Origin: Escherichia coli
GTDB taxonomy: Bacteria; Pseudomonadota; Gammaproteobacteria; Enterobacterales; Enterobacteriaceae
NCBI RefSeq assembly: GCF_030384885.1
Contig: NZ_CP128613.1
DNA length: 64,000 nt
Strand: one strand, 5' to 3'
A model generated the notes under the pieces. It did not search any database, was not told where the DNA came from, and saw nothing but the letters and a program-made list of their open reading frames with translations. The translations under genes were made by a program, and so were the position numbers. This document shows, piece by piece, positions 61,475 to 63,010 of this stretch (within the stretch, counting starts at the first letter, position 1; each line of letters begins with the position of its first letter).

Positions 61475-62545
61475 TTATTCGAATTTCGGAAAGGTAAAGA
61501 AAATATTAATGTATCTTATTAATTTATCATATTGTTCTTGGGTGAATGCTGTTTGCACACCTTCAGGGCAATATTTACCAGTAATAACCAGTTGCCCATT
61601 GCTGTGTTGTATCATTAAACCTTCTTTTTCCTTTGGATCTAAAAACTTAGAATTATCAAATGTGAAGATATTTTTTTCATTTTTTGAGTAAGCAAAGAAA
61701 TCTCGTGTATAGCTGAAACTATCATTTATTAATGGTGCTAACTTTTTGTCGGCGATATCGATAAGCTCACCACTTAATTTATTGATGTATTTCATTTGCT
61801 TCAATTTTTTCTGCGCTTGCACAATTTGCTTGTAGGTGTTTTCAATTTTTTTAGAAGAATTCTTAAATACATCATAGCGTTCCCCGGAGGATGTGTATTT
61901 GTACCATTCTGTATTTTTCTCAGAATGTAGTAGCAGGTCTGTATATTCTTTTTGCTTGCTGTAAAGTTGAGTTCTTATATTTAACTCGTGGATAAATTTA
62001 TAAATTTTGTCAGAGTTGGTTATTTTTGGTGTGTCTTTGTCTGTCAATGTTTGGATCTTGTTATTGATATTTTCTTTTGCAACATGCTCATTGATGATGT
62101 TAATTGCAGTTTCATATTCATTTAAATTTATTGTTCTTTCTGAAAGAAACCCTTCTTTGCTTTCGATACTCAAAACACCTTCGTTGTTTTCACCTCGGGT
62201 AAAGGTAAGGGTATAGGGTTCATAATCTTCTGCAAATTCATTTTTATACGTTATGACATGCTCGACAAAATGTCTTATTGGTACGAAACCATAACTGTGA
62301 ACGTCAATTTTTTGTGTTTTGATACTATCAATTTCATCTGAGGCTTTCGTGAAAAAAGCCAATAAATTAGCTATGTTGTCTGCTGAGGTTGATAACCCGA
62401 ATCTACTTTGAGATATTTTTAGAAACTCATTGCAAAAAATCTCAAGTTTCGCGGTTTGTTGTGATTCTTTGTAAATTTCTGCTGTTTGCAATTTATTATT
62501 TTGTAAAATATTACAGCGAGATAAGTGAATAGATGTATTTGGCAT
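61475..62545 (-). CDS. Hypothetical protein, about 356 aa, very AT-rich orphan gene with no recognisable family
   Basis: Long uninterrupted minus-strand ORF (61475-62581 in the ORF track); the second ATG at 62545 (MPNTSIHLSRC) is preceded by AAGGA at RBS distance; K/N/E/I-rich composition, GC far below the flanking core genes. Confidence 0.6.
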   Translation of the reverse strand: MPNTSIHLSRCNILQNNKLQTAEIYKESQQTAKLEIFCNEFLKISQSRFGLSTSADNIANLLAFFTKASDEIDSIKTQKIDVHSYGFVPIRHFVEHVITYKNEFAEDYEPYTLTFTRGENNEGVLSIESKEGFLSERTINLNEYETAINIINEHVAKENINNKIQTLTDKDTPKITNSDKIYKFIHELNIRTQLYSKQKEYTDLLLHSEKNTEWYKYTSSGERYDVFKNSSKKIENTYKQIVQAQKKLKQMKYINKLSGELIDIADKKLAPLINDSFSYTRDFFAYSKNEKNIFTFDNSKFLDPKEKEGLMIQHSNGQLVITGKYCPEGVQTAFTQEQYDKLIRYINIFFTFPKFE

Positions 62546-63010
62546 AAATGATTCCTTGTAGTGTGAGTTAACAAGATACAATTTAATCTTTGCAGAATAT
62601 ATTCACTATCAAATTTAGCTCATTTTATTACGAAGACCTTTACGCATGTTAGAAAGTATCATTATTGTTAATAAATACGGTAATAAGTAACAAACAGATA
62701 TTGATAACTTCCCTGACTAGTTATTAGGTATCCCACTTGAAGATTGAGAATGGCTCCAGAGTAAACTGTGTACTGTTCGCCGGAGTGTCATTACTCTCAA
62801 CAATCGGTTTTGACAGTGAGTCGGGCGCTTCATACCGGTTTCTACCTGGAGTCATTGTCACTTCTCCCAACTGAATAAATATATATCGCCAATTCACAAA
62901 GTGGGCCAAAATCAGGTGAAAACGAATTATTACGCATGGTAAAGACTACAGGCCAACTAAGTGTGGCGAATCAGGCAATCTTACATTTGTCATCAATCTC
63001 ATGTCTCACA

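What the first reader, a model, noticed from the sequence alone, without database searches (positions are those of the whole stretch)
61475..62581. AT-rich orphan gene between glpQ and the yfaH fragment: candidate undescribed accessory function
A 1.1-kb uninterrupted minus-strand ORF (about 356 aa from the RBS-supported start) sits in a roughly 2.2-kb gap between glpQ and inaA. Its GC is far below the flanking core genes and its composition is Lys/Asn/Glu/Ile-rich. I cannot assign it to any family: no Walker motif, no transmembrane segments, no signal peptide. As far as I recall, E. coli K-12 has only the short yfaH pseudogene in this interval, so this looks like a single-gene insertion at a pseudogene-marked variable spot. 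Single AT-rich genes with this architecture are often abortive-infection or other anti-phage proteins, or toxin/effector genes silenced by H-NS, but that is speculation.
Basis: partly seen in the sequence, partly recalled or inferred. Interest (0 to 1): 0.75.

Follow-up and report, generated by a model that had tools for sequence, protein, structure and literature searches.

The report
Orphan E. coli gene on AT-rich insertion
This is a real but uncharacterised protein-coding gene found only in Escherichia (the counterpart of O157:H7 Z3496/ECs3123), carried on a 1.7-kb AT-rich insertion next to glpQ; about one E. coli genome in five has it, it is often broken, and nothing yet shows what it does.

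Summary
Window 61475..62545 (-) is a 356-codon ORF with an AAGGA ribosome-binding site and about 30% GC against about 50% in the flanks. It has no transmembrane segment, signal peptide or catalytic motif.

It is a true insertion. E. albertii, Salmonella and Citrobacter have the LysR gene directly next to glpQ, as K-12 does. The window carries an extra ~1.71 kb (61289..63002) with no mobility genes.

The gene is not new as an entity. It is the same locus as the hypothetical protein WP_001301786.1 of O157:H7 EDL933, which I infer to be Z3496/ECs3123. It occurs in 1045 of 5426 complete E. coli genomes. No relative below about 65% identity turned up among billions of proteins. Pfam, NCBIfam, PADLOC, PHROGs, PDB, plasmid, phage and viral-contig searches all gave nothing. 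AlphaFold2 failed (pLDDT about 40).

It is coding. The chance of an open frame this long is about 2e-13, most alleles keep it open, and O157 carries a compensated double frameshift. Constraint is weak (dN/dS about 0.5), and IS1 insertions and frameshifts are common.

Function is unresolved. The defence or toxin idea is neither supported nor excluded.

The parts
61475..62545 (-). Orphan ORF of 356 aa (41.6 kDa, pI 6.7). It sits at the same locus as the EDL933 hypothetical protein WP_001301786.1, inferred to be Z3496/ECs3123.
   Evidence: 84% aa and 93% nt identity to EDL933. Most sequenced alleles keep 356 codons open. P(open by chance) is about 2e-13.
62553..62557 (-). Shine-Dalgarno-like AAGGA, 7 nt upstream of the ATG at 62545
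   Evidence: Read from the sequence. It is invariant in the 7 alleles aligned.
61289..63002 (.). The ~1.71-kb AT-rich insertion (ends uncertain by 4 nt because of TCCT/TCAT microhomology). It lies between the glpQ terminator hairpin and a point 8 nt from the LysR (yfaH) stop codon.
   Evidence: K-12 and E. albertii share the empty site. Salmonella and Citrobacter also have LysR next to glpQ. No flanking repeats, tRNA-like or mobility features were found.
61916..62095 (-). Hypervariable central stretch (about codons 151-210). It includes two short A-runs that are frameshift hot spots.
   Evidence: Only 6-9 of 20 residues are invariant per block, against 15-20 elsewhere. Window versus other alleles shows 22% nt divergence at 61960..62109, dN 0.27 and dS 0.45. 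Intermediate and recombinant alleles exist (P0002, P0005, L022). O157 has a -1/+1 compensated frameshift. L016 and L023 have uncompensated frameshifts.
62546..62860 (-). Upstream non-coding region that is more conserved than the ORF itself. It presumably holds the gene's own promoter and leader.
   Evidence: Diversity is 0.015-0.017, against 0.02-0.09 inside the ORF. It is kept in strains that have lost the LysR gene upstream (window, L009, L022). No sigma-70 consensus match and no Rfam match were found.
62724..62855 (-). 43-codon small ORF that PGAP annotates in some genomes. It is probably not a gene.
   Evidence: It is intact in 7 alleles, but frameshifted in L016 and L017 and fused by a deletion in L018. 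Its only relatives come from this same locus.
61265..61288 (+). glpQ terminator hairpin (GCAGGATGGCG...CGCCATCCT). The insertion begins immediately after it.
   Evidence: Sequence. The hairpin is conserved in K-12 and E. albertii.
63011..63217 (-). C-terminal fragment of the ancestral LysR regulator (equivalent to yfaH in K-12 and to Z3495 in O157). It is a pseudogene here.
   Evidence: The full-length gene is present in EDL933, E. albertii, Salmonella and Citrobacter.
63246..63258 (.). Junction of a separate 1.87-kb deletion that removed the LysR N-terminus and most of the MFS gene, at a short direct repeat. K-12 has the same junction.
   Evidence: The K-12-type junction is found in 3131 genomes and an intact LysR in 1116.

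Best explanation
The ORF is a genuine protein-coding orphan gene restricted to Escherichia. It sits at the same locus as the O157:H7 EDL933 hypothetical protein, which I infer to be Z3496/ECs3123.

How it got there: a 1.71-kb piece of AT-rich DNA of unknown source was inserted once, by illegitimate recombination. The site lies between the glpQ terminator hairpin and the stop codon of an ancestral LysR regulator gene. The insert brought no mobility genes. It was then carried between lineages on homologous flanks.

What it encodes: a soluble cytoplasmic protein of 41.6 kDa. Two conserved blocks (about residues 1-160 and 220-356) are joined by a hypervariable, recombining, Lys/Ser/Thr-rich stretch. 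The gene has its own conserved upstream region.

Selection: purifying selection is weak (dN/dS about 0.5), and the gene is repeatedly lost by IS1 insertion, frameshifts at two A-runs, and deletion.

Shown: that it codes for protein, that it is an insertion, its distribution, its decay, and the absence of any detectable family. Inferred: that it is a dispensable, conditionally expressed accessory gene, probably repressed by H-NS because of its 30% GC, whose benefit is niche-specific. Its biochemical activity cannot be assigned from sequence.

The confidence of 0.55 applies to this whole statement, including the inferred part. The shown parts alone would rate about 0.9.
For: Coding: the chance of an open frame this long is about 2e-13, and the other frames have 14-40 stops. 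Eleven of 15 alleles examined keep 356 codons open across 7-8% nucleotide divergence. Randomly re-placing the observed substitutions keeps the frame open in only 3-5% of trials. The O157 lineage has a -1/+1 frameshift pair about 35 nt apart that restores the frame.

Insertion: E. albertii, Salmonella and Citrobacter have LysR 42-115 bp from glpQ, and the E. albertii empty site matches K-12. The insert junctions are the same in the window and EDL933.

Orphan status: only relatives of at least about 65% identity, all E. coli-like, appear in the 5.8-billion and 1.84-billion protein libraries. One hit in 100,044 species genomes is an E. coli-like contig binned into a Collinsella MAG. Plasmids (the one record listed is chromosome-sized, ~4.9 Mb), phages and viral contigs gave nothing. 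Pfam, NCBIfam, PADLOC, PHROGs and PDB gave no significant match.

Weak constraint: dN/dS is 0.4-0.7, against 0.02-0.04 for glpQ and about 0 for glpT in the same strain pairs. Variable sites fall 36/28/36 across the three codon positions.

Decay: IS1 interrupts the gene in 12 of 60 evenly sampled carriers. Frameshifted alleles include L016 and L023, and the truncated 208-aa cluster has 541 members. IS1-mediated and larger deletions also occur.

Distribution: 1045 of 5426 complete genomes carry it, always chromosomal and at this one locus.

Expression hint: Z3496 is not among the 144 EDL933 genes with no read in any of eleven conditions (PMC4048457 Table S3).
Against: There is no direct evidence of expression, translation or phenotype, and no paper in the library mentions Z3496 or ECs3123. 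A dN/dS of about 0.5 with nearly uniform changes across codon positions is not far from neutrality. The frame-retention tests are only moderately significant (p about 0.03-0.05 per comparison). H-NS repression is inferred from composition alone. No promoter consensus was found upstream. The upstream non-coding DNA is better conserved than the ORF, so the selected element might not be the protein.
Confidence: 0.55

Rival explanations
1. It is a stand-alone conflict gene: a single-protein anti-phage or abortive-infection system, or a toxin-like protein kept silent until triggered. The hypervariable central stretch would act as a recognition or adaptor region.
For: It is a single AT-rich gene with its own conserved upstream region. 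Its distribution is patchy and it is often inactivated. The central stretch has deeply diverged haplotypes and recombinant alleles, as seen in genes under diversifying or balancing selection. The O157 frameshift was repaired, which suggests that the C-terminal block matters.
Against: PADLOC-DB v2 gave 0 families even at E<=1. There are no nuclease, NTPase, TIR, SIR2, protease or transmembrane features. It is not in a defence island, has no neighbouring mobile or defence genes, and occupies the same locus in every genome. It has no relatives outside Escherichia, unlike known defence families, which spread widely. In the variable stretch dS is raised as much as dN, which fits old haplotypes or relaxed constraint as well as positive selection.
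Confidence: 0.15
2. It is a secreted host-interaction factor, for example a non-LEE type III secretion substrate, kept in pathogenic lineages such as O157:H7.
For: The first 22 residues (MPNTSIHLSRCNILQNNKLQTA) are polar, rich in Asn, Ser, Thr and Gln, and lack acidic residues. From my own recollection this resembles T3SS signals. The gene is AT-rich like many effectors. It sits next to Z3495, a LysR regulator reported to activate LEE genes (PMC10819331). It is abundant in the O157:H7/O55:H7 lineage.
Against: It shows no similarity to any known effector family. It is not in a prophage or an exchangeable effector locus. Carriers also include many isolates not labelled O157 or STEC, from urine, companion animals, pig, poultry and fish; whether they have a T3SS was not tested. 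Deleting OI-97 (z3494-z3495) explains the published phenotype without this gene. The N-terminal composition is what any 30%-GC gene would give.
Confidence: 0.07
3. The protein no longer matters. The ORF is a decaying passenger, and whatever is selected on the insert is the conserved ~300-bp upstream non-coding region (a regulatory site or an unrecognised RNA), or nothing at all.
For: The upstream region has diversity of 0.015, against 0.02-0.09 inside the ORF. dN/dS is about 0.5 and substitutions fall almost evenly across codon positions. About 20% of carriers have IS1 in the gene, and others have frameshifts. PGAP flags many alleles as pseudogenes.
Against: Most 'frameshifted' flags are an artefact of using the O157 allele as the reference. 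Of the six flagged alleles examined, the window, L007, L008, L009, L022 and L025 are open for 356 codons, and only L023 is truly frameshifted. The blocks at residues 81-120, 141-160 and 261-320 are nearly invariant. The O157 frameshift was compensated. Rfam found nothing in the upstream region. The small ORF there tolerates frameshifts.
Confidence: 0.2
4. It is a chance open frame or an annotation artefact with no gene.
For: It has no homologues outside the genus, no predicted fold (pLDDT 40-41), no promoter consensus, and a low-complexity-like K/N/E/I composition.
Against: The chance of an open frame this long is about 2e-13 at this composition, while the other five frames hold 14-40 stops. 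There is a conserved RBS. The frame is kept open across lineages that differ by 7-8%.
Confidence: 0.03

Closest known systems
Hypothetical protein WP_001301786.1 of E. coli O157:H7 EDL933 (locus EDL933_RS16680; inferred old tags Z3496 / ECs3123)
   Same: Same locus between glpQ and the LysR gene, same length (356 aa), and the same insert junctions. Identity is 84% at protein level and 93% at nucleotide level.
   Different: The window allele carries the rarer central-stretch haplotype; only 22 of 1052 genomes are at least 95% identical to it. The window keeps the majority reading frame where O157 has a compensated -1/+1 frameshift over 12 codons. In the window the neighbouring LysR-MFS pair is deleted.
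O-islands of E. coli O157:H7, e.g. the adjacent OI-97 (z3494 MFS, z3495 LysR; PMC10819331)
   Same: Both are small chromosomal segments present in O157:H7 and absent from K-12, without mobility genes, and part of the same variable interval.
   Different: The OI-97 genes are ancestral: they are present in E. albertii, Salmonella and Citrobacter and were lost by deletion in K-12. The segment studied here is a true foreign insertion, absent from those outgroups, with 30% GC and no homologues.
Single-gene anti-phage systems of the E. coli pangenome (families in PADLOC-DB v2)
   Same: One AT-rich gene of a few hundred codons, patchy strain distribution, no recognisable domains in some members.
   Different: No PADLOC profile matches. 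The gene is fixed at one chromosomal site rather than in prophage, satellite or defence-island hotspots. It has no relatives in other genera. No phenotype has been tested.
Taxonomically restricted (orphan) genes of enterobacteria
   Same: No homologue outside one genus, AT-rich, fast-evolving, weakly constrained, and frequently pseudogenised.
   Different: At 356 codons it is much longer than typical de novo orphans. It arrived on inserted DNA rather than arising from local non-coding sequence, since the outgroup site is only about 42 bp.

Membership tests
Any Pfam / NCBIfam / PHROG family or protein of solved structure | Significant profile or sequence match | tested here: not met
   Pfam gave no hit even at E<=10. 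The best NCBIfam hits were E=0.068 and 0.011, far below the curated cut-offs. The best PHROG hit was E=0.12. The best PDB hits were E=0.24 with the sequence and 0.72 with the profile.
Known or candidate anti-phage defence systems (PADLOC-DB v2.0.0) | Match to a defence-protein HMM | tested here: not met
   0 families at E<=1.
Known or candidate anti-phage defence systems | Location in a defence island, mobile element or integration hotspot with other defence genes | tested here: not met
   The neighbours are always glpQ and the LysR gene or fragment, and the only mobile DNA seen is IS1 disrupting the gene. There are no phage, plasmid or viral copies.
Known or candidate anti-phage defence systems | Protection against phage when expressed | not testable with these tools
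   Needs a plaque assay in a strain that lacks the gene, such as K-12.
Type III secretion effectors | Homology to a known effector family, or location in a prophage or exchangeable effector locus | tested here: not met
   No homologues were found. The locus is not prophage-borne.
Type III secretion effectors | N-terminal secretion signal and T3SS-dependent translocation | not testable with these tools
   The first 22 residues are polar and lack acidic residues. That is also expected from the 30% GC composition, and no predictor or assay was available.
Horizontally acquired genomic islet | Absent from the orthologous site in sister species and in many conspecific strains | tested here: met
   The site is empty in E. 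albertii, Salmonella, Citrobacter and K-12. The K-12-type empty junction is found in 3159 genomes and the insert in 1045 of 5426.
Horizontally acquired genomic islet | Base composition deviating from the core genome | tested here: met
   GC is 0.27-0.34, against about 0.50 in the flanks.
Horizontally acquired genomic islet | Mobility signatures (integrase, tRNA target, flanking direct or inverted repeats) | tested here: not met
   There is no integrase or transposase ORF. There is only 4-nt imperfect microhomology at the ends and no terminal repeats above chance.
Taxonomically restricted (orphan) gene | No detectable homologue outside a narrow clade despite exhaustive search | tested here: met
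   An exhaustive phmmer search of 1.84 billion cluster representatives found only fragments of the same gene. The 5.8-billion word-indexed search found only E. coli-like proteins of at least 82% identity. The species-genome scan gave one E. coli-like contig.
H-NS-silenced xenogeneic DNA | AT-rich relative to the host, and bound and repressed by H-NS | tested here: inconclusive
   The AT-richness is met. H-NS binding could not be tested. The gene is not among the fully silent EDL933 genes.

The most novel reading that the evidence does not exclude
The protein founds an undescribed single-gene conflict system (anti-phage, abortive-infection or toxin-like). Its two invariant blocks would carry the activity. 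Its hypervariable, recombining central stretch, flanked by two frameshift-prone A-runs, would tune specificity or switch the gene on and off. The fold would be new, given that no homologue turned up among about 15 billion proteins.
Probability: 0.12. Interest if true: 0.65.

Novelty: already known. Interest (0 to 1): 0.3.

Why it matters
As an object the gene is already catalogued. RefSeq and UniRef list it as a hypothetical protein, and it belongs to the O157:H7-specific gene set. What remains open is its function.

It is a clean example of a long (356-codon) orphan gene with no relative outside one genus. It arrived on foreign DNA and is now partly decaying. It sits next to a LysR regulator that has been reported to affect EHEC virulence.

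The practical value of this analysis is threefold:
- It shows which neighbouring features are ancestral (the LysR-MFS pair, published as 'OI-97') and which is truly acquired (this gene).
- It shows that PGAP's 'frameshifted' label on most non-O157 alleles comes from the choice of reference allele, which hides the gene from protein-based pangenome counts.
- It defines a simple experiment: K-12 lacks the gene naturally and offers an empty, ancestral site.

Tried and rejected
- **Family searches.** Pfam, NCBIfam, PADLOC, PHROGs and PDB, by sequence and by profile, gave nothing significant.
- **Structure prediction.** AlphaFold2 on the full length with 11 alleles gave pLDDT 41. On the C-terminal 147 residues it gave pLDDT 40. 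These are too poor for a fold search, so I ran none.
- **Internal repeat.** By eye, the two beta-beta-beta-alpha stretches (about 108-158 and 293-350) look alike. hhalign gave probability 0.05%, so I rejected the idea.
- **Positional homologues.** I looked for a diverged counterpart at the same site in E. albertii, Salmonella and Citrobacter. There is none; the site is empty.
- **Mobile context.** Plasmid, phage and viral-contig searches found nothing. The one 'plasmid' hit is a ~4.9-Mb, chromosome-sized record.
- **Structured RNA.** Rfam at E<=1 found no match in 61000..63500.
- **The 43/61-codon upstream ORF as a partner gene.** Rejected. It is frameshifted or fused in some alleles, and its only relatives come from this locus.
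- **Short repeats at the insert ends as att or target-site duplications.** The 15-19-nt matches at 84-87% (D1, D6) are at chance level, and I took them no further.
- **Literature.** No paper mentions Z3496 or ECs3123. Papers mentioning yfaH are irrelevant. Supplements of two EDL933 transcriptome/translatome papers do not list the gene, and the full expression tables were truncated in the copy held.
- **Not run.** I did not run the metagenome-contig scan, because the protein libraries already cover those sources.
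Full report
**1. The observation**

The minus-strand ORF is real. The ORF listing reports 61475..62581 (368 aa from a TTG start). The ATG at 62545 is preceded by AAGGA 7 nt upstream and gives the 356-aa product that PGAP also calls.

GC falls to 0.27-0.34 over 61350..62700. The neighbouring glp genes are at 0.43-0.60. 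At this composition a stop is expected about every 13 codons. The chance of 356 open codons is about 2e-13, and the other five frames contain 14-40 stops.

The protein is 41.6 kDa with pI 6.7 and is rich in K, I, E and N. Its highest 19-residue hydropathy is 0.63, so it has no membrane segment or Sec signal. It lacks Walker A, Rossmann, HExxH, CxxC, lipobox and Tat motifs.

**2. Identity of the window and of the gene**

The DNA is 100% identical to E. coli strain 2013C-4282 (NZ_CP027579). This strain differs from K-12 and EDL933 by about 5% in glpT-glpQ, so it belongs to a divergent Escherichia lineage. An identical partial protein is recorded from strain TW10509. From my own knowledge, not tested here, that is a cryptic clade I strain.

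The same gene, at the same place, occurs in O157:H7 EDL933 as the hypothetical protein WP_001301786.1. Published tables give Z3495 = the LysR regulator, Z3497/ECs3124 = glpQ and ECs3125 = glpT. The only gene between them should therefore be Z3496/ECs3123. This is an inference from numbering.

No paper in the library mentions either tag. Every source calls the protein 'hypothetical' or 'uncharacterized'. Z3496 is not in the complete list of 144 EDL933 genes that had no read in any of eleven conditions (PMC4048457 Table S3). That is a weak hint that it is transcribed at least somewhere.

**3. Insertion or deletion?**

Compared with K-12, the window has an extra 1.71 kb (61289..63002). There is 4 nt of imperfect microhomology at the ends. 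The extra DNA starts right after the glpQ terminator hairpin and ends 8 nt from the stop codon of the LysR fragment (yfaH).

To find the ancestral state I collected orthologues of the LysR protein and read their contigs. In E. albertii, Salmonella enterica and Citrobacter the order is nrdAB-yfaE-MFS-LysR-glpQ. The LysR stop is only 42-115 bp from the glpQ stop. The E. albertii empty site aligns base for base with K-12.

So the segment is an insertion in the E. coli lineage, and K-12 shows the ancestral empty site. In contrast, the LysR-MFS pair published as 'O island 97' (PMC10819331) is ancestral. It was lost from K-12, and from the window, by a separate 1.87-kb deletion at a short direct repeat.

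The insert has no integrase, no transposase and no terminal repeats above chance. The two insert junctions are the same in the window and EDL933, which points to a single event.

**4. Distribution and state**

Counts in 5426 complete E. coli genomes:

| Configuration | Genomes |
|---|---|
| Gene present (always chromosomal, one copy) | 1045 |
| K-12-type empty junction | 3159 |
| K-12-type LysR/MFS deletion | 3131 |
| Intact LysR | 1116 |

The marginal counts imply that genomes with an intact LysR gene but no insert also exist, so all four combinations are probably present (I confirmed three directly). Larger deletions also exist, for example glpQ directly next to inaA in strain LI60C3.

In an evenly spaced sample of 60 carriers, 12 have IS1 inside the gene and about 22 are O157:H7 or O55:H7.

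I examined 15 alleles in detail:
- 11 are open for 356 codons.
- 1 is split by IS1.
- 1 is truncated by IS1 plus a deletion.
- 2 have uncompensated frameshifts.

A truncated 208-aa form makes up a cluster of 541 sequences, against roughly 3300 in the full-length clusters.

PGAP labels the window's own copy and five other alleles examined as 'frameshifted'. All but L023 are fully open. The label arises because the reference protein is the O157 allele, which carries a -1 and a +1 indel about 35 nt apart in two short A-runs. The window has the majority frame.

**5. Is it under selection?**

Pairwise dN/dS is 0.4-0.7. In the same strain pairs it is 0.02-0.04 for glpQ and about 0 for glpT. Variable sites fall 36/28/36 over the three codon positions. 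Constraint is therefore weak, but it is not absent:
- Randomly re-placing the observed substitutions keeps the frame open in only 3-5% of trials.
- Residues 81-120, 141-160 and 261-320 are almost invariant.
- The O157 lineage repaired a frameshift.

The central stretch (codons about 151-210) is hypervariable. The window differs from other alleles by 22% at 61960..62109, with dN 0.27 and dS 0.45. Intermediate and recombinant alleles exist (P0002, P0005, L022). Because dS is raised as well as dN, this looks like old haplotypes plus recombination, or simply an unconstrained linker. It does not look like clear positive selection.

Unexpectedly, the 300 bp upstream of the ORF is better conserved (diversity 0.015) than the ORF. 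It presumably holds the gene's promoter and leader, because it is retained where the LysR gene is gone. No consensus promoter or Rfam family was found there. A 43-codon ORF in that region tolerates frameshifts and is probably not a gene.

**6. Homology and structure**

An exhaustive phmmer search of 1.84 billion cluster representatives found only fragments of this same gene. The search of the 5.8-billion-protein library likewise found only E. coli-like sequences of at least 82% identity.

A scan of one genome for each of 100,044 species found a single hit. It is an E. coli-like contig binned into a 'Collinsella' MAG. Plasmid, phage and viral-contig searches were empty. Pfam, NCBIfam, PADLOC, PHROGs and PDB gave nothing significant.

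AlphaFold2 gave pLDDT 41 for the full length and 40 for the C-terminal domain. I did not attempt a fold search on models this poor. The predicted secondary structure is helices plus two small beta-meanders. A suspected internal repeat was not supported.

**7. Interpretation**

What is shown is a real, genus-restricted, horizontally acquired orphan gene. It is weakly constrained and often lost.

What it does is not shown. I rank the readings as follows:
- A dispensable, conditionally expressed accessory protein of unknown activity is the best-supported description: about 0.55.
- A decaying passenger, with selection if any on the upstream DNA: about 0.2.
- A stand-alone defence or toxin-like gene: about 0.15.
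- A secreted effector: about 0.07.
- A chance frame: about 0.03.

It is not excluded either.

**8. Verdict**

The finding is accurate as an observation and correct about the insertion. The gene is already in the databases as an uncharacterised O157:H7 gene, and small AT-rich orphan insertions in E. coli are a familiar phenomenon. Interest is modest at 0.3. It would rise only if an experiment revealed an activity.

Noticed in passing
window 61900-61960 (codons about 197-210); L002 4221-5291: The O157:H7 allele carries a -1 and a +1 indel about 35 nt apart in two short A-runs, which recodes 12 codons and then restores the frame. PGAP uses this allele as its reference, so it labels the majority-frame alleles, including the window's own genome copy, as 'frameshifted' pseudogenes although they are open for 356 codons. 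Single uncompensated indels in this stretch truncate the gene in L016 and L023.
   Followed up: yes
window 62560-62860: The non-coding DNA upstream of the ORF is more conserved across lineages (diversity about 0.015) than the ORF itself and than most 150-bp windows of glpT and glpQ. No promoter consensus or Rfam family explains this.
   Followed up: partly
window 63246-63258; L002 6001/7869: The deletion that created the yfaH-type LysR fragment and removed the MFS gene has the same short-direct-repeat junction in the window's divergent lineage as in K-12. It is found both with and without the orphan gene. Either the deletion recurs at the repeat or the region recombines freely.
   Followed up: partly
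L011, L012, L014 (E. albertii, Salmonella, Citrobacter): In these outgroups yfaE is followed directly by the MFS gene, so inaA is not at this position. inaA therefore looks like another lineage-specific addition to this interval in E. coli. The published 'O island 97' genes (z3494, z3495) are ancestral rather than acquired.
   Followed up: partly
L004 (JAIJJM010000334.1): A 3.5-kb contig assigned to a Collinsella sp. MAG carries this gene at 87% protein identity. It is almost certainly an E. coli contig that was mis-binned.
   Followed up: no
P0023 (408 aa, ENA metagenome): One database protein joins about 35% of this gene to a region with cytidylyltransferase-type Pfam domains (PF01467, PF05636). 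It is probably an assembly or gene-calling chimera.
   Followed up: no
L020 (NZ_CP136900.1) and L010 (NZ_CP135595.1): Further configurations of the interval exist. In one, glpQ sits directly next to inaA with everything between deleted. In another, an IS1-mediated deletion fuses the 3' 201 bp of the orphan gene to a truncated MFS gene. The glpQ-inaA interval is a deletion hot spot.
   Followed up: partly
NZ_CP141089.1 in the plasmid collection (hit H31): A 4.9-Mb record listed among the plasmids carries the gene. Its size suggests a chromosome mislabelled as a plasmid in PLSDB.
   Followed up: no
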